Assembly: GCA_019057865.1 (NCBI GenBank)
Contig: JAHLWP010000012.1
Coordinates: 1 to 64,000, forward strand
Direction: 5' to 3'
Length of the DNA stretch: 64,000 nucleotides
DNA from: Promethearchaeota archaeon
Lineage (GTDB): Archaea > Asgardarchaeota > Lokiarchaeia > Sigyniarchaeales > SOKP01
The position numbers and the translations under genes were made by a program. The number at the start of each line of letters is the position of its first letter. Position 1 is the stretch's first letter. The notes beneath the pieces are model-generated. The model saw only the letters and a list, made by a program, of their open reading frames with translations. It ran no database searches and was not told the origin of the DNA. This document shows, piece by piece, positions 24,896-45,881 of the stretch.

Positions 24896-25273
24896 ATGGT
24901 AAAAGTTAATGGAGCTCAATTAATAGTTAGGGCATTAGATAATCAAGGAGTTAATGTGATATTTACTCTTTGTGGAGATAATGATTTGATCTATAACTAT
25001 TGCTCATCCTTAAGCGATGAAACTAGATATGATAAATATGCTGAAGCTTTTAATTGTTATGGAGAATTAGTTTCAGATTCTAATGAAATACGCCCAGCAT
25101 TACAGCGGGTTTTTGATTCAAACCTACCTGCTGTAATTGATGTAAGGATTAATCCTAAAGTAAATACTGTTATGGATTACCTTGCTCGTGAAGCCTATAA
25201 TCCAGATAGCTGGAAACGAAAAGTTAAAAAGAAAACTGAGATTGTTCTTGAAGTACCAGTAACTAAAAGTTGA
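24896..25273 (+). pseudogene. Internally deleted TPP-dependent enzyme (acetolactate synthase-like)
   Basis: The TPP_enzyme_N start (NGAQLIVRALDNQGVNVIFTLCG) is fused directly to the TPP_enzyme_C end (RYDKYAEAFNCYG...PAVIDVRI). Confidence 0.7.
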
Positions 25274-32908: not shown

Positions 32909-33739
32909 ATGATTTTAGAAAAAACTGTAGAATTAGTAAAAAAAATCTATAAATATCATAAGATTGTCCCTCCTAAAATTACAAAAGTGATTATCGGATT
33001 AGGTTATACAGGAGTAGAAACAACATCTTATTCTTATGAACCATTCTTAGGTTTAGCTTATACTTTACCAAGAGTAATTAAAAAAACTGATTGTAATAAA
33101 ATTAATTTTGCGGGATCTCTTACCGATAGATCTTTACTAGAAGTATTACAATGGTCATATGAGCCACCAAGCTTAAAAAAAATTATTGGAATAGCTACAT
33201 TGAACGCAGTGTCTCAACATATATTTCAAATTGCTAAGGATAATGATTGGGGTAATCCATATATTAGAATCAAAGAAAATCTTATAGACTATCTAAAAAT
33301 CGAAAAAAATACAAAAGTAACGTTTATTGGATTTGTAAAGCCGATGATCCAGAAGATAAGGAGAATTACACCAAATATCCTAATTATTGAAGACAATCCT
33401 TCTATCTCTACAAGTTTTAATAATTGCATTATCAAGAATGATATTAAGCAGTTAGATAAAAAGGAATTATCCACGGATATTCTATTTTGTACTGGTACAG
33501 CGTTAATAAATGATACATTTGAGGAGATCTTAGAATTATTTAAAAGAAATGTTCGTTGTATCTCAATTATTGGTCCTAGCGCTAGTATGATTCCTGATAT
33601 CTTATTTGATTATGGTATTGATATTGTAGGAGGAATGAAAATTATAGATTCAGAGGCTACTATGATGGTTATCCAAGAAGGAGGAGGAACAAAATTATTT
33701 AAGAAATTTGGAATTAAATATAACTTAATTCCAGAATAA
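32909..33739 (+). CDS. DUF364 family (Rossmann-like) protein
   Basis: IGIATLNA, TGTALINDT and IGPSASM motifs. Confidence 0.8.
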   Translation: MILEKTVELVKKIYKYHKIVPPKITKVIIGLGYTGVETTSYSYEPFLGLAYTLPRVIKKTDCNKINFAGSLTDRSLLEVLQWSYEPPSLKKIIGIATLNAVSQHIFQIAKDNDWGNPYIRIKENLIDYLKIEKNTKVTFIGFVKPMIQKIRRITPNILIIEDNPSISTSFNNCIIKNDIKQLDKKELSTDILFCTGTALINDTFEEILELFKRNVRCISIIGPSASMIPDILFDYGIDIVGGMKIIDSEATMMVIQEGGGTKLFKKFGIKYNLIPE

Positions 33740-40944: not shown

Positions 40945-41101
40945 GGTTTAATTTATTGAGTGTTTAATTAATTAATTTATATTCAAATACAATACTCCTT
41001 TATCAAAAAATATATTCATTAGTATTATCCAGTGTAATAAATAACCTAATAAATACTAGCATATTTATCAAAATATAAAAACATAATTTATAGTGAAAAA
41101 C

Positions 41102-43039
41102 ATGAGTAAAGCTAAAGGAAAACCTTTACCAGATGATGTTAAAGGATATTCACAAGTTAGACTCGATGTCGATCTAACAACTGGGAAAATTGAAAAAACT
41201 GAATTATCAGGAGAATTCTGTCGCGATTGGATTGGTGGATATGGCTTCGGTGCTCGCATTTTGTGGGAAGAGCTGAAACCTGGCATAGATCCACTCGGTC
41301 CGGAGAATGTTTTTGTTTATGCTCAGGGACCATTCCCAACCACCATTCTGCCAACTAGCTCAAAGTATGGCGTTTTTGCCAAATCACCTTTAACGGGAAT
41401 GTTTGGAATGGCAATATCTTCGGGAAGTGTAGGAGCTCAAGCTCGTCGTGCTGGAATTAATGTAATTGTCTTTAAAGGAAAAGCTCCTGAACTCTCTTAC
41501 TTTGTTATTGACGATGATGATGATTATTTAGTTCCATGCGAAAAAACTTTAAAGGGAAAAGGAACCTTTGAAACTGAAGATCTTTTAAGAGAGGAATTTC
41601 AGGACCAACGATTAGCAGTAATGAGTATAGGACCTGCTGGTGAACGTATGAGTAGAATGGGATGTATTACTAATGATCGAAACAGACAAGCGGGAAGAAC
41701 AGGAATGGGCGCTGTTATGGGATCCAAAAACCTTAAAGCAGTTTGTTTTAGGGGCACTAAAGGTATAAAAGTTGCACATCCAGTTGAATTTTATAAAATA
41801 GCCAAGAAACTCATAAAGGTAGCTAATGGACCTGCGACTGCTAAATATCGAGATCTTGGAACACCTGCAGGACTTACAAGCTATAACAAACTTGGGATGA
41901 TGCCTACTTTTAACCATCGCGAAGGTACCTGGGATAAGATTACTAATGGTTCCTTCACTGGTGATACACTTAATGAGGATTGGGTTGTAAAGAAAGTTGC
42001 TTGCTCACAATGCTCCATTGCTTGCGATCATCTAGCAAGAGTCCCCAAAAATCATCCTGACTGGCCAAATCTTATCGCAAGTGTTGATATTGAACTTTTG
42101 TATGGATTTGGAACTGGATGTGGTAATGCTGATTGGCCAACTGTCTTCAAGTGTATTAGTTTGTGTGATGATTTAGGAATTGATGCTATTAGTGGAGGAG
42201 TAACTGCTGCTATGGCTTGCGATCTTTATACAGACGGCTTAATAACTAAAGAGGATTTAGGATTCGAACTTCCATTTGGTTCAACAACGAATTTAGTAAA
42301 ATTTACAGAAGAAATGATCCTTGGAAAAGGATTTGCAGGAGAAATTTTTGGTCATGGAACCAGAGTTGCCGGTGAAAAATTAGAAGAGAAGGGAAAGAAG
42401 GGAGCTAGTACGTATGCAATGCAAATTAAAGGGTTAGAGATGCCTGCATTTGATATCCACGGAATGTCGTCCTTCGCCGTTGGGGAGAGCGTATCCATTA
42501 GAGGCGCTTGTCATTTGCGTAATGGATCTTATGGACTCGATGCTAAAGGCACTTTTGATCGTTTCAGTTATGATAAACCTCTAGAACGTGGAAAAGCAAT
42601 TAAGGCAGTTGAGGATGTATATGGCATCATCGATTCTTTCATCATTTGTAAATTTACACGCGGAATTTATGAGAATGATGCCGAAATGGCAAAAGTTTAC
42701 GAGTTAGTAACTGGTCTTCCAATGGATGAAGAATTAATGCTTGAAAGGGGAGATGCAATTGTTACTCTTTCAAAGTGTTTTAACATCAGAGAAGGTTGGA
42801 CCAGAGCAGATGATCATCCCCCAGAAAGATTCTTTAAAATGGCTCACACAAAGGGTCCTGCTAAAGGAGTGACCCTAAAAGAAGATGGATTTCAACAATT
42901 GTTATCGGGTTATTATGAAGCAAGAGGTTGGGATAAAGAAACAGGTATTCCTACTGATGAAACCTTGAAAAAATTAGGAATGGAGTTCGTTATTGGTAAT
43001 TTAAAACCAGCACAAACAAAAAAAGGAGGTAAAAAATAA
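41102..43039 (+). CDS. aor: Tungsten-dependent aldehyde:ferredoxin oxidoreductase family protein
   Basis: KSPLTG, IGPAGE, AGRTGMGAVMGSKNLKA, CSQCSIAC, DDLGIDAIS and RGACH motifs. Stop overlaps the next ATG (TAATG). Confidence 0.92.
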   Translation: MSKAKGKPLPDDVKGYSQVRLDVDLTTGKIEKTELSGEFCRDWIGGYGFGARILWEELKPGIDPLGPENVFVYAQGPFPTTILPTSSKYGVFAKSPLTGMFGMAISSGSVGAQARRAGINVIVFKGKAPELSYFVIDDDDDYLVPCEKTLKGKGTFETEDLLREEFQDQRLAVMSIGPAGERMSRMGCITNDRNRQAGRTGMGAVMGSKNLKAVCFRGTKGIKVAHPVEFYKIAKKLIKVANGPATAKYRDLGTPAGLTSYNKLGMMPTFNHREGTWDKITNGSFTGDTLNEDWVVKKVACSQCSIACDHLARVPKNHPDWPNLIASVDIELLYGFGTGCGNADWPTVFKCISLCDDLGIDAISGGVTAAMACDLYTDGLITKEDLGFELPFGSTTNLVKFTEEMILGKGFAGEIFGHGTRVAGEKLEEKGKKGASTYAMQIKGLEMPAFDIHGMSSFAVGESVSIRGACHLRNGSYGLDAKGTFDRFSYDKPLERGKAIKAVEDVYGIIDSFIICKFTRGIYENDAEMAKVYELVTGLPMDEELMLERGDAIVTLSKCFNIREGWTRADDHPPERFFKMAHTKGPAKGVTLKEDGFQQLLSGYYEARGWDKETGIPTDETLKKLGMEFVIGNLKPAQTKKGGKK

Positions 43040-43658
43040 TGTCAAAAGCTGCAACTAAAAAAAGAGGAGGAAAGATGCATCAATTCATCATCGTGGATCC
43101 AAATTTATGTACGGGATGCGAAACTTGGACCAGGTCTCCTGGAAAGCACAAAACCTGTGAATCCGTATGTAGTTTTGTACATGATGGTGAATTCAATCCA
43201 ATAAATACAAGAATTCATAGAGTTCGAATTGAACCTGTTTTTAATATCGCTTTAGCGTGTCAGAAGTGTGAAGACTCACCCTGCGTGAGAGCGTGTCCTG
43301 AGAAAGCGCTAAGTCAAGACCCAGAAACGGGTTCAATTATGGTAGATGACGATAAATGTAATGGCTGCGCCTTCTGTATGAATTAAGAGAATTTCTCTCT
43401 AATATGCGGAAAAGGGCGTGCGATTTCGGAGTTCTGAGTCTACATATTGAATCTCAGAAAGCACTTATCTGTGATCTTTGTGAAAATATGAAGGAAGATT
43501 ATATTGATGAAGAATCCGGAATTAAGGAACCCCAATGCATATTGGTTTGTCCTAAAGAGGCGATTTCTCTTAAAAATGTGGAACAGATTGGAGAAGAAAC
43601 CCGTATTGAAGCCGTTAAAAGACTTTTTTCATCAATACTAGAAGAGTATGAAGGTTAA
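43039..43658 (+). CDS. 4x[4Fe-4S] electron-transfer subunit of AOR (DmsB/AorA-like); predicted spliced CDS join(43039..43122,43153..43379,43412..43658), 185 aa
   Basis: The ORF track splits it into 115 aa and 84 aa pieces. Removing the 30-nt and 32-nt inserts gives 558 nt in frame, with 16 Cys in four groups: CTGCETCESVC, CQKCEDSPCVRAC, CNGCAFCIRAC and CDLC...CILVC. Confidence 0.85.
43123..43152 (+). other. Candidate BHB-type mRNA intron 1 (30 nt)
   Basis: Central helix UGCG(43117-20)/CACA(43147-50) with one C-A mismatch. 3-nt bulges AAA(43121-23) and AAA(43151-53). Inner stem CUU/AAG plus a CCAGG-UCU-CCUGG hairpin. Outer exon-exon stem UACGGG/CCUGUG. Excision gives TGC GAA ACC TGT. Confidence 0.72.
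43380..43411 (+). other. Candidate BHB-type mRNA intron 2 (32 nt)
   Basis: Outer stem GCGCCUU/AGGGCGU (7 bp). Central 4-bp helix CUGU(43374-77)/GCGG(43406-09). Bulges AUG(43378-80) and AAA(43410-12). Inner hairpin AUUA-AGAGA-auu-UCUCU-c-UAAU. Cutting after the 2nd bulge nt gives TGT ATA AGG GCG TGC and removes the stop and frameshift. Confidence 0.8.
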
Positions 43659-43675
43659 ATAATATTTTTATATAT

Positions 43676-43710
43676 TTATTTCTTTTTTTTATTCTATCTT
43701 TTATTTTTTT
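43676..43710 (+). terminator. Oligo-T archaeal terminator candidate after the aor operon
   Basis: Several T5-T8 runs immediately downstream of the stop at 43658. Confidence 0.4.
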
Positions 43711-43904
43711 AATAAGTATTATCATTAAAGTTTTAAATTTTATGATTTATTTGTAGGATAGATAATTGAAATTACATAATAATTGGATTTTAATAATATA
43801 GACTATTTACAATATCATAAATATTTTTTTGATTAGCAATTCTTGATATAGGTAAGTAGAAAAGAAGAAACTTATGGAGGAAAGAATTAAACAAGGTGTA
43901 TAAC

Positions 43905-45881
43905 TTGTCTGAAAAACAGACCAAGGATAATAATGAACCAGAATTGCCAATTGTTGGCGTTTTCGTGTGTCGCTGAGGAATAAACATCGCTGGTATCTTA
44001 GATGTCCCTAGAATCGTGGAAGAACTTAATAGATTAGAAGGTGTAAAAGCTTTTGAATATCTTAGTATGTGTACTGAAGGAGGATCTTCTTATATAAAGG
44101 AACAACTTGAAGAAAGTAAAATTGAGAGAATTGTTGTAGCTGCTTGTACTCCTAGAACTCATCAACCAGTTTTTCACGCTATACTCGCTGAAGCTGGTTT
44201 ACCTCCTAGATATTTGGAATTTGTTAATATAAGAGAACATTGTAGCTTCGTTCATCAAGCTCCAGAAGTACGTGAAAAAGCAATTCAGAAGGCAATTGAA
44301 CTCACAAAAGCAGGAATAGCACGTGCTAGATTATTAGAAGATGTTCCAATAAAAGTAGTACCTGTTGAACCAGTGGCTCTAGTTGTAGGAGGAGGTATTG
44401 CTGGATTATCTGCTGCTGTTGATTTAGGGGATGCTGGATTTAAAGTTTACCTCGTTGAAAAGAATACTACAATTGGAGGTAGGATGAGCCAATTAGACCG
44501 AACATTCCCAACGGACGATTGTTCAATATGAATTCTCGGTCCTAAAATGTTAGAAGCAAATCGTCATCCAAACATTGAGATTCTATCATATAGTGAAGTC
44601 ATTGAAGTTGATGGATATATTGGAAATTTCAAGGTTAAAGTTAAAAGAAAGTCACGGTTCGTAGATGAAATTAAATGTACTGGTTGTGGAGCATGTCCAG
44701 AAGTATGCCCTATTTATGTACCTAATTATTTTGATGAAAATCTTTCGGCGAGAAAATGCATTGATATCGCTTTTGCTCAAGCTGTTCCTGCAATTTTTGA
44801 TATTGCAAGAGAATCTTGTGTAGAATGTTTTGCTTGTGTTGATTCATGTGAAGAAGATGCTATTGATTTTAGTATTCAAGATAAAGAAATTGAACTTAAA
44901 GTTGGTACTATAATTGTTGCTACAGGGTGGGATCTCTATCAAGGACCAGATTATGGATATGGTACTTTCGATAATGTTGTAAATCAAATCGAGTTGGAGA
45001 GGATTCTTGCGCCTAATGGTCCTACTTATGGACATTTAAAACGACCTTCTGATGGAAAACGTCCTACTAAAGTATTATTCATCAATTGTGTTGGATCGAG
45101 AGACATAAATAAAAATGCTCACTGCAGCGTTATTTGCTGTAATTTATCTCTTAAAAACTCAAAACTCATCAAATTAGAATATCCTGATTCTCAAATAGTT
45201 TGTTGTTATATAGATATGAGATGTGCAGGAAAAGATTATGAAGAGTACTATAGACGTTCACGAGAAGCAGGAATTATCTTTCTAAAAGGATTAGTTGGTA
45301 AAATTGAAGAAGATCCATTAACTAAAAATCTAAAAGTACAGTTTGAACCTGTTGGCACAGATACAATTGTCGAGATGGAGTTTCATATGGTTGTATTATC
45401 ACCAGCATCACTCCCATCTAAAGGTACTGTGGAGATAGCGAGAGTTTTAAATATGGAAAAAAGCCCAGATGGATTCCTAAAAGAATTTCATGCTCGACTT
45501 GATCCAATCAGTACAAAGGTTCCTGGAATATATATATGCGGTTCAGCTCAAGGACAAAAAGAGATTGATAAAGCAGTCAGCCAAGCAAAGGGTGCTGCTT
45601 CTACAGCAGGTATACCAATGGGCAAAAAAGAATACGTCATGGAGTTAATTCGGGCTACACCTTTAGATGAACGTTGTGCCAAATGTTACAAATGTATAGA
45701 GTCATGTCCATATAGTGCGATTTCAGTAAATGAGAAAGGAATTCTAGTAGTGAATATTATTCTATGCAGAGGATGTGGTACTTGTGAAGCCGTTTGTCCT
45801 TCTAAAGCAATTGAATTAACATACTTTAGAGATGATCAATATATGGCATTAATTGATGAATTACTTCCTATTGCGGATTAA
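43905..45881 (+). CDS. hdrA: Heterodisulfide reductase subunit A-like flavoprotein; selenoprotein with two Sec (UGA 43974-76, 44529-31), about 658 aa
   Basis: One frame from TTG 43905 (AAGGTG upstream): VGVFVCR-U-GINIAG ... FPTDDCSI-U-ILGPKM ... Joins ORFs 44016..44531 and 44547..45881. Both TGAs sit at positions that are Cys in HdrA. Confidence 0.9.

What the first reader, a model, noticed from the sequence alone, without database searches (positions are those of the whole stretch)
43039..43658. Two tRNA-type (BHB) introns in an Asgard protein-coding gene: candidate endonuclease-spliced mRNA system
Seen: the Fe-S gene translationally coupled to aor has two short foreign segments inside CxxCxxCxxxC motifs. 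Each folds with its flanking exons into bulge-helix-bulge geometry: a 4-bp central helix, two 3-nt bulges on opposite strands, an inner intron hairpin and an outer exon-exon stem. Cutting after the second nucleotide of each bulge removes 43123-43152 and 43380-43411. The product is a clean 185-aa 4x[4Fe-4S] protein with all 16 Cys correctly spaced. Known: the archaeal splicing endonuclease EndA cuts BHB motifs at these positions and RtcB ligates the exons. BHB introns are typical of tRNA/rRNA, and the crenarchaeal cbf5 intron is the classic mRNA exception. Inference: this lineage splices metabolic mRNAs, with several introns per gene. Annotation pipelines would call such genes pseudogenes. This bears on the origin of eukaryotic non-spliceosomal mRNA splicing (Ire1/HAC1-XBP1 uses tRNA-ligase chemistry).
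Basis: partly seen in the sequence, partly recalled or inferred. Interest (0 to 1): 0.97.

Follow-up and report, generated by a model that had tools for sequence, protein, structure and literature searches.

The report
Two tRNA-type mini-introns in Asgard ferredoxin gene
A four-cluster iron-sulfur protein gene next to aor in an Asgard (Promethearchaeota) archaeon is interrupted by a 30-base and a 32-base insert that have the shape, conservation and evolutionary behaviour of tRNA-type (bulge-helix-bulge) introns, so its mRNA is very probably cut and rejoined, a process published for essentially one archaeal protein gene (cbf5).

Summary
Removing 43123-43152 (30 nt) and 43380-43411 (32 nt) gives a 185-aa protein with 16 Cys in four ferredoxin motifs.

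- **Orthologs:** 36 of 40 in the genus are uninterrupted.
- **Other carriers:** three further genomes and several metagenome contigs carry inserts at the same two sites. They are always 30 and 32 nt, with diverged sequence but conserved pairing.
  - I2: 93% of cells paired, against 33-56% when the partners are slid.
  - I1: 89%, against 17-58%.
- **Selection:** the exon downstream of the frameshifting insert stays under strong purifying selection. I1 shows no codon periodicity.
- **Not an assembly error:** DNA contigs from two other studies contain both inserts.
- **Machinery:** the genome has two EndA paralogues (one lacks the catalytic His) and RtcB.
- **Same genome:** its only ribosomal uS12 gene, an acetyl-CoA synthetase, an epimerase and dnaG carry similar inserts. 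The BHB cut sites restore contiguous domains or motifs.

Caveats: I found no spliced RNA for this gene. In this genome I1's central helix has a C·A mismatch and its outer stem is offset by one base. I2's BHB fold here lies 4.2 kcal/mol above the MFE.

This scan had already noted similar introns on other DNA. I found no paper describing them in Asgard mRNAs.

The parts
41093..43039 (+). aor (aldehyde:ferredoxin oxidoreductase), the upstream gene; its stop overlaps the Fe-S start (TAATG)
   Evidence: Pfam AFOR_N 3.8e-63 and AFOR_C 8.5e-97; ORF list
43039..43122 (+). Fe-S gene exon 1 (Met1 to Glu28; ends ...TGCGAA)
   Evidence: aligned with uninterrupted orthologs
43123..43152 (+). Intron I1: 30 nt, in frame, no stop. 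The boundary can slide by up to 2 nt to the left or 1 nt to the right without changing the product
   Evidence: absent from 38 of 40 genus orthologs; 30-nt inserts at the same site in L021, L023, L025, L026; no codon periodicity
43117..43153 (+). I1 BHB core. Central helix 43117-43120/43147-43150 (U-A, G-C, C.A, G-C). Bulges 43121-43123 and 43151-43153. Intron helix h' 43124-43126/43144-43146. Inner hairpin 43130-43134/43138-43142
   Evidence: the central helix is a full 4 bp in the four other alleles
43110..43159 (+). I1 outer exon-exon stem 43110-43115/43154-43159, offset by the unpaired A43116. An alternative longer stem is 43105-43114/43163-43172
43153..43379 (+). Fe-S gene exon 2 (ends with the first two bases, AT, of the Ile104 codon)
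   Evidence: Pfam Fer4_11 5.6e-8
43380..43411 (+). Intron I2: 32 nt, shifts the frame, in-frame TAA at 43384-43386
   Evidence: absent from 36 of 40 genus orthologs; 32-nt inserts at the same site in 9 other distinct alleles
43367..43419 (+). I2 hBHBh' motif. h 43367-43373/43413-43419. H 43374-43377/43406-43409. Bulges 43378-43380 and 43410-43412. h' within 43381-43405
   Evidence: the count of structure pairs gives 92.9% paired against 33-56% slid, with 4 compensatory pairs; the MFE is exactly this motif in L026, L028 and L030
43412..43658 (+). Fe-S gene exon 3 (A of the Ile104 codon, then Arg105 to Gly185 and the stop)
   Evidence: dN far below dS between intron-bearing alleles; 94% identical to the nearest ortholog

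Best explanation
Both inserts are archaeal bulge-helix-bulge (BHB) introns in the pre-mRNA of a 4x[4Fe-4S] electron-transfer subunit that is co-transcribed with aor.

Proposed mechanism:
1. The transcript folds so that each intron end sits in a 3-nt bulge on either side of a 4-bp helix. Half of that helix is exon sequence.
2. The host splicing endonuclease cuts after the second bulge base on each strand. The enzyme is probably an (alpha-beta)2 heterotetramer built from the two EndA paralogues.
3. RtcB joins the exons.
4. Only the spliced mRNA encodes the 185-aa protein with all 16 cluster-binding cysteines.

Shown here: the anatomy, the conservation of structure across alleles, selection on the exons, presence of the inserts in DNA, presence of the enzymes, and further cases in the same genome.

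Inferred, not shown: cleavage, ligation, and which enzyme does it.
For: 1. Removal restores CETC and CIRAC and a 185-aa, 16-Cys product.
2. 36 of 40 genus orthologs and 75 of 80 species-representative loci are uninterrupted at exactly these points.
3. I2 occurs as a 32-nt insert at the same site in 10 distinct alleles. I1 occurs as a 30-nt insert in 5. Removal gives an open, stop-free frame in every one (184-186 aa in the full-length alleles).
4. Structure is conserved.
   - I2: 92.9% of cells paired against 33-56% slid, with 4 pairs changed on both sides.
   - I1: 89.2% against 17-58%.
   - The unconstrained MFE is a textbook hBHBh' in three I2 alleles.
5. Exon 3, downstream of the frameshift, has dN 0.03-0.27 with dS 0.2 to saturated between intron bearers. 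The gene has therefore stayed functional with the insert.
6. I1 differences show no codon periodicity. For L023-L025, third positions differ at 0 of 10 sites, against 49% in the exons.
7. The exon-exon helix is 6-7 of 7 pairs in type-A bearers, against a mean of 4.9 in 96 intron-less alleles.
8. DNA contigs from two other studies span both inserts with no deletion.
9. EndA is present twice (200 aa with Tyr/His/Lys; 207 aa without the His), and RtcB is present.
10. The same genome has BHB-shaped inserts of 30-40 nt in other genes. The cut sites join the two halves of a Pfam domain in three of them: the only uS12 gene (profile 2-54 | 56-108), acetyl-CoA synthetase and an epimerase. In dnaG they restore a conserved motif (GAIFGQ|TEGLL).
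Against: - I saw no spliced RNA for this gene. The single RNA run had only low-depth contigs over aor and showed none across the inserts.
- In this genome I1 is a relaxed motif: a C.A in the central helix and an outer stem offset by one base. It is never the MFE in any of the five alleles.
- I1 is in frame and stop-free in all five alleles, so an unspliced message could still give a full-length protein.
- I2 in this genome has a competing fold 4.2 kcal/mol better than the BHB.
- The L016/L021 form of I2 has only 3 bp plus a purine-purine mismatch in the central helix.
- My genome-wide scan showed only a weak overall excess of correct over mirror-image geometry. The support comes from individual verified cases, not from a census.
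Confidence: 0.8

Rival explanations
1. Only I2 is an intron. I1 is a translated 10-residue loop between the second and third cysteine of the first cluster motif, that is, a protein-level indel.
For: I1 is in frame and has no stop in all five alleles. Motif 4 of the same protein tolerates an 18-residue spacer between its second and third Cys. I1's BHB is relaxed and is not the MFE.
Against: Substitutions in I1 have no codon periodicity. In the closest pair, silent sites are more conserved than in the exons (0 of 10 against 49%). The central helix and h' are kept through compensatory changes. The length is fixed at 30 nt, and the distribution on the gene tree is as patchy as that of I2. A 30-nt insert of the same build carries a TAA in the sole uS12 gene.
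Confidence: 0.1
2. The gene is a pseudogene, or a gene split into two separately translated ORFs (115 aa and 84 aa).
For: Annotation reads it as two ORFs. In this genome an in-frame ATG (43404) lies inside I2, just upstream of exon 3.
Against: Exon 3 is under strong purifying selection among alleles that have diverged to synonymous saturation. In L006, L016 and L021 the exon-3 frame has a stop inside the insert, and its first start codon lies 12-21 nt after the essential Cys codon. A split would divide one CxxCxxCxxxC motif between two chains. Removal of the insert gives an open, stop-free frame in every allele (184-186 aa in the full-length ones).
Confidence: 0.03
3. The ribosome bypasses the inserts (programmed hopping, as in phage T4 gene 60), or some other non-EndA process removes them.
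For: Short structured gaps of similar size are bypassed in T4 gene 60 (my own knowledge). I2 has a stop two codons after the junction in five alleles.
Against: No matching take-off and landing codons are conserved across alleles. In this genome, hopping from ATG to ATG would give C-x5-C instead of C-x3-C. The conserved features are the two bulges and the 4-bp helix, not a take-off hairpin.
Confidence: 0.03
4. Assembly or sequencing artefact, or a repeat-derived (MITE-like) insertion.
For: The inserts are short palindromic segments, and the genome is a metagenome-assembled genome of 87 contigs.
Against: Contigs of two other studies (X3, X4) carry both inserts. Ten other assemblies carry homologous inserts. 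There are no other copies of either insert in the genome.
Confidence: 0.01

Closest known systems
BHB intron in the cbf5 (pseudouridine synthase) pre-mRNA of Crenarchaeota (Watanabe 2002; Yoshinari 2006; Yokobori 2009, PMC2738675)
   Same: A short intron inside a protein-coding gene, with BHB architecture, presumably cut by the tRNA-splicing endonuclease. It is found in hosts with a heteromeric EndA. It is patchily present among relatives, implying gain and loss.
   Different: A different phylum (Asgard/Promethearchaeota) and a metabolic Fe-S gene rather than an RNA-modification gene. There are two introns in one gene, and several other genes of the same genome are affected, including uS12. 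Splicing of cbf5 was shown experimentally; splicing here was not.
Non-canonical BHB introns of archaeal tRNA genes, including the heavily interrupted tRNA genes of Asgard archaea (Marck and Grosjean 2003; bioRxiv 10.64898/2026.10.13.758758)
   Same: The same motif (h-B-H-B-h'), the same requirement that half of the motif be exon sequence, relaxed variants, multiple introns per gene, and repeated gains and losses.
   Different: Here the host RNA is an mRNA. The exon half of the motif is made of codons (Cys/Ala/Arg codons of ferredoxin motifs), so it is shaped by synonymous codon choice.
Ire1-dependent HAC1/XBP1 mRNA splicing in eukaryotes
   Same: Non-spliceosomal endonuclease cuts in an mRNA, with the exons rejoined by a tRNA ligase (RtcB in animals, Trl1 in yeast). 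Removal of a short intron changes the reading frame.
   Different: The endonuclease is different (Ire1 rather than EndA/TSEN), and so is the recognition structure (two stem-loops). It is a regulated stress response. No homology or descent was tested here.
Fer4_11-type four-cluster ferredoxin-like subunits partnered with tungsten or molybdenum oxidoreductases
   Same: The spliced product has the four Cys motifs, Pfam Fer4_11 and related hits, and a position directly downstream of aor.
   Different: Nothing unusual in the protein itself. The novelty lies in the interruptions of its gene.

Membership tests
Archaeal BHB (EndA-dependent) intron | [quoted passage not shown] | tested here: met
   I2: 43378-43380 and 43410-43412 flank 43374-43377/43406-43409 (4 bp, two of them G-U). 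This is kept in 7 type-A alleles (92.9% of H cells paired). I1: 4 bp in four alleles, and 3 bp plus C.A in this genome.
Archaeal BHB (EndA-dependent) intron | Flanking helices h (exon-exon) and h' (intron) directly adjoining the bulges | tested here: inconclusive
   I2: h is 7 bp; h' is perfect (8-10 bp) in L006, L023, L026 and L028, but has two single-base bulges in this genome. I1: h' is 3 bp and adjacent; h is offset by one unpaired base, so this is a relaxed motif.
Archaeal BHB (EndA-dependent) intron | Cuts after the second base of each bulge give a functional joined RNA | tested here: met
   In silico only. The cuts restore the frame, the two Cys motifs and a 185-aa protein collinear with its uninterrupted orthologs (93.5% identity to the nearest). 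The same rule joins Pfam half-domains in uS12, ACS and an epimerase.
Archaeal BHB (EndA-dependent) intron | Host encodes the splicing endonuclease and an RtcB-type ligase | tested here: met
   PF01974 twice (104.6 and 70.5 bits) and PF01139 once (561 bits).
Archaeal BHB (EndA-dependent) intron | Intron absent from the mature RNA; ligated exons or a circular intron observed | tested here: inconclusive
   One metatranscriptome run was laid. Its contigs cover parts of aor, none was shown across the inserts, and no joints were reported. No spliced junction was found in JGI contigs.
Archaeal BHB (EndA-dependent) intron | Structure rather than sequence conserved among homologous introns | tested here: met
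   Compensatory changes occur in h, h' and the inner hairpins. For I1, compare CCAGG/CCUGG with UUUGG/CCAAA.
Programmed translational bypass element (T4 gene 60 type) | Matching take-off and landing codons flanking the gap | tested here: not met
   No conserved matching codon pair across alleles. The only match in this genome (ATG/ATG) would give a wrong Cys spacing.
Group I / group II self-splicing intron | A ribozyme core of hundreds of nucleotides | tested here: not met
   The inserts are 30 and 32 nt. No Rfam family reaches its gathering score anywhere in the window.
MITE or other repeated mobile insertion | Multiple similar copies in the genome, with terminal repeats and a target-site duplication | tested here: not met
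   blastn-short of both inserts against the 4.26-Mb genome finds only chance matches of 11-18 nt.
Fer4_11 four-cluster ferredoxin-like protein (host gene) | Four Cys motifs of the CxxCxxCxxxC type, and Pfam 4Fe-4S dicluster hits | tested here: met
   16 Cys in four motifs after removal; Fer4_11 7.4e-8 on the first ORF.

The most novel reading that the evidence does not exclude
Promethearchaeota carry a dynamic population of 30-40-nt BHB mini-introns in many mRNAs, including the only gene for ribosomal protein uS12. EndA/RtcB splicing of messenger RNA would then be obligatory for making ribosomes and central metabolic enzymes in the closest archaeal relatives of eukaryotes. These introns would be gained or precisely lost repeatedly at identical sites, and might spread between lineages.
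Probability: 0.55. Interest if true: 0.88.

Novelty: new member of a known kind. Interest (0 to 1): 0.72.

Why it matters
- **Literature:** protein-coding BHB introns rest in print almost entirely on cbf5 of Crenarchaeota. A 2025 review-level paper cites nothing else.
- **What this adds:** the comparative evidence here indicates that an Asgard archaeon uses the same machinery on a metabolic operon, twice within one small gene, and on other genes, including its sole uS12.
- **Annotation:** such genes are currently called as truncated ORFs or pseudogenes. Examples are the 105-, 108-, 120- and 132-aa database entries. Asgard metabolic reconstructions and completeness estimates are affected by this.
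- **Evolution:** mRNA splicing by tRNA-splicing enzymes would have been available in the lineage that gave rise to eukaryotes. The patchy, same-site presence and absence offers a tractable system for studying intron gain and loss.

Tried and rejected
- **RNA evidence.** The look-up of sequencing runs gave one RNA run (X20, 5% of words). Laid at 85% likeness, it showed low-depth contigs over parts of aor, no listed contig across either insert, and no joints. This says nothing either way.
- **Spliced junction in JGI metagenome contigs.**
  - The I2 junction pattern (degenerate for five alleles) found nothing.
  - An I1 junction pattern hit one contig (L037), which is an ordinary intron-less DNA allele of another clade.
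- **Protein database.** It holds no protein identical to the spliced product. The best 185-aa hits (P0002, P0003) are intron-less relatives.
- **Genome-wide census by strict or scored BHB geometry, against a mirror-image control.**
  - Raw counts are equal (53,858 against 53,608).
  - ORF-joining hits are not enriched (230 against 262), because ordinary gene boundaries pass the test.
  - Scored versions give only a small excess at the top (55 against 32; 40 against 32).
  - I therefore make no claim about the total number of introns. Individual top hits were verified instead.
- **Aragorn tRNA-intron calls as a positive control for the cut rule.** The calls were too unreliable to use.
- **hdrA.** The apparent break in the neighbouring hdrA gene (44529-44531) is an in-frame TGA, not an intron.
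Full report
**Anatomy**

The window is contig C14:1-64000 of a 4.26-Mb, 87-contig genome with 29% G+C. aor (41093-43039; AFOR_N and AFOR_C) is followed by an Fe-S gene. Its ATG (43039) overlaps the aor stop.

As written, the gene gives a 115-aa ORF ending CNGCAFCMN* and an 84-aa ORF starting inside the second insert. Deleting 43123-43152 (30 nt, in frame, no stop) and 43380-43411 (32 nt, in-frame TAA, frameshift) yields 185 aa. The product has 16 Cys and four ferredoxin motifs, with CTGCETCESVC and CNGCAFCIRAC restored.

**Geometry**

In the true BHB, each strand reads 5'-helix, 4-nt H, 3-nt bulge, helix-3'. Exon 1 therefore ends with H plus two bulge bases, and the intron ends with the other H strand plus two bulge bases. 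This follows from established knowledge of the canonical 37/38 tRNA intron. It is borne out here: only this handedness recovers conserved protein motifs in my scan.

I2 fits the motif:
- h 43367-43373/43413-43419;
- H 43374-43377/43406-43409;
- bulges AUG and AAA;
- h' with two single-base bulges.

In this genome a competing extension of H pairs the 5' bulge, so the BHB fold is 4.2 kcal/mol above the MFE.

I1 is relaxed:
- H is UGCG/CACA, with one C.A;
- h' is 3 bp;
- the outer stem is shifted by the unpaired A43116;
- the BHB fold is 4.8 kcal/mol above the MFE.

**Relatives**

Of 54 genomes in the genus, 40 have the ortholog. It is interrupted only in G000, G016, G018 and G062. In the GTDB species set, 75 of 80 loci give one uninterrupted match, and the three interrupted ones are those same genomes. 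The record titles name Promethearchaeota/Promethearchaeia MAGs, so the Asgard assignment holds.

G016 and G018 carry a 32-nt insert at the I2 site. G062 carries both a 30-nt and a 32-nt insert.

The protein database holds truncated products of 98-132 aa. Their contigs (L023-L032) carry I2, and three lineages also carry I1. In every case the lengths are exactly 30 and 32 nt. Removal gives an open, stop-free frame in every allele, 184-186 aa in the full-length ones.

**Structure conservation**

For seven type-A I2 alleles, the hBHBh' model pairs 92.9% of cells, against 33-56% with partners slid by 1-3 columns. Four pairs change on both sides. In L026, L028 and L030 the unconstrained MFE is exactly the motif.

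The L016/L021 form has a quite different intron sequence. It fits one base to the right, with an 8-bp outer helix, a 7-position h' (fully paired in L016, one C·A mismatch in L021) and an H of 3 bp plus a purine-purine mismatch.

For five I1 alleles, the model pairs 89.2% of cells against 17-58% slid. H is perfect in four alleles. h' changes C-G to U-A. The inner hairpins are unrelated in sequence.

The exon-exon helix of I2 has 6-7 of 7 pairs in bearers, against a mean of 4.9 in 96 intron-less alleles. Two things follow. The ferredoxin-motif codons are inherently self-complementary, which may explain why introns sit there. Bearers also use synonymous codons (AGG/CGG GCG, GCC) that complete the helix.

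**Function retained**

Between intron-bearing alleles, exon 3 has dN 0.03-0.27, while dS runs from 0.2 to saturation. Exon substitutions are strongly periodic by codon position (about 0.15, 0.08 and 0.5). I1 substitutions are not. In the closest pair (L023, L025), I1 differs at 1, 3 and 0 of 10 first, second and third positions, while 49% of exon third positions differ. I1 therefore does not evolve as coding sequence.

A two-ORF reading fails in L006, L016 and L021. There, the first start codon in the exon-3 frame lies after the essential Cys codon.

**History**

On a gene tree built from the exons, I2 needs at least 5-6 changes and I1 needs 5. Well-supported sister pairs differ in intron presence. 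This implies either repeated precise loss or repeated acquisition at the same site. I cannot tell which.

**Not an artefact, not a repeat**

Contigs from two other studies (X3 record 21, 42949-43674; X4 record 29, 42949-43800) run through both inserts. No deletion or joint is seen there. Neither insert has another copy in the genome.

**Machinery**

There are two EndA paralogues. One (200 aa) has the Tyr/His/Lys catalytic residues. The other (207 aa) lacks the His at that position, as expected of a structural subunit of a heterotetramer. That reading is my inference from the sequences. There is one RtcB.

**Other genes of the same genome**

I took adjacent same-strand open frames of at least 60 codons. 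For each pair I scored every frame-restoring cut for BHB geometry. For the present gene, the best-scoring cut is exactly 43380-43411.

| Gene | Place (contig, strand) | Insert | What the cut restores |
|---|---|---|---|
| Ribosomal uS12 | C27 (-) 25030-25059 | 30 nt | Pfam profile 2-54 \| 56-108 |
| Acetyl-CoA synthetase | C82 (-) 548-579 | 32 nt | CTA\|DIGWITGHSY; AMP-binding profile 6-211 \| 215-321 |
| NAD-dependent epimerase | C75 (+) 2684-2714 | 31 nt | GDP_Man_Dehyd profile 1-139 \| 146-332 |

These three were confirmed with Pfam. The uS12 gene is the only one in a genome rated 99.7% complete, and its insert carries a TAA.

dnaG on C79 has a 40-nt insert between GAIFGQ and TEGLL, with a 4-bp H and an adjacent h'.

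The overall excess of correct over mirror-image geometry is small. I therefore claim verified cases, not a count.

**What is missing**

I have no spliced RNA for this gene.

**Literature and the scan**

Full-text searches found no report of BHB introns in Asgard mRNAs. A 2026 preprint treats Asgard tRNA introns only. A 2025 paper on archaeal splicing endonucleases cites only the cbf5 work for mRNA.

Earlier notes of this scan report similar inserts in this genome and in many others, some with RNA support. I re-found dnaG and the cooS candidate independently. I did not check their RNA claims.

Noticed in passing
window 44016-45881 (TGA at 44529-44531): The hdrA-like gene downstream is called as two ORFs, but it is one frame with a single in-frame TGA at the position of a conserved Cys (...TDDCSI[TGA]ILGPKMLEANRHPNI...). 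This is probably a selenocysteine codon. No SECIS element was looked for.
   Followed up: partly
L118:631-660 (G000 contig C27:25030-25059, minus strand): The only ribosomal protein uS12 gene of the genome carries a 30-nt in-frame insert with a TAA. It has a clean BHB (H CUGG/CUAG, 9-bp h'). The two halves match Pfam Ribosom_S12_S23 positions 2-54 and 56-108.
   Followed up: yes
L119:548-579 (G000 contig C82, minus strand): The acetyl-CoA synthetase gene is split by a 32-nt BHB-shaped insert inside the conserved CTADIGWITGHSY motif. The halves match AMP-binding profile positions 6-211 and 215-321.
   Followed up: yes
L120:685-715 (G000 contig C75:2684-2714, plus strand): An NAD-dependent epimerase/dehydratase (UDP-xylose-synthase-like, GHV|NPVGPRSCYDE) is split by a 31-nt BHB-shaped insert. 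The Pfam halves are contiguous.
   Followed up: yes
G000 contig C79, about 33012-33051, plus strand: dnaG is interrupted between GAIFGQ and TEGLL by a 40-nt insert with stops. It has a 4-bp H (GGCC/GGCU), an adjacent 3-bp h', and an outer helix offset by two bases.
   Followed up: partly
G000 contig C41:42255-42286, plus strand: A 32-nt insert joins a 558-codon frame to a 75-codon frame (...VAVAPEY|MEQKATIDA...). This is probably the cooS case noted earlier in the scan. It was not checked against Pfam here.
   Followed up: no
L033:75-638 (ENA contig, ortholog of the Fe-S gene): This allele follows the gene up to ...CIRACD and then diverges completely. It could be another, longer insertion or a chimeric contig.
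   Followed up: no
L029:957-1253: This allele has TAG where all others have the Lys codon AAG (CQ*CE) in the second Cys motif. It could be a sequencing error or a nonsense allele. The tool flagged it as translating only with TAG=Q.
   Followed up: no
gene tree of the Fe-S orthologs (loci L001-L032): Intron-bearing and intron-less alleles are sister pairs in several well-supported places (L001/L002, L006/L009, L023/L015). I1 of L023 and L025 is far more alike than their exons' silent sites. This hints at transfer of introns between lineages, or at strong RNA-level constraint.
   Followed up: partly
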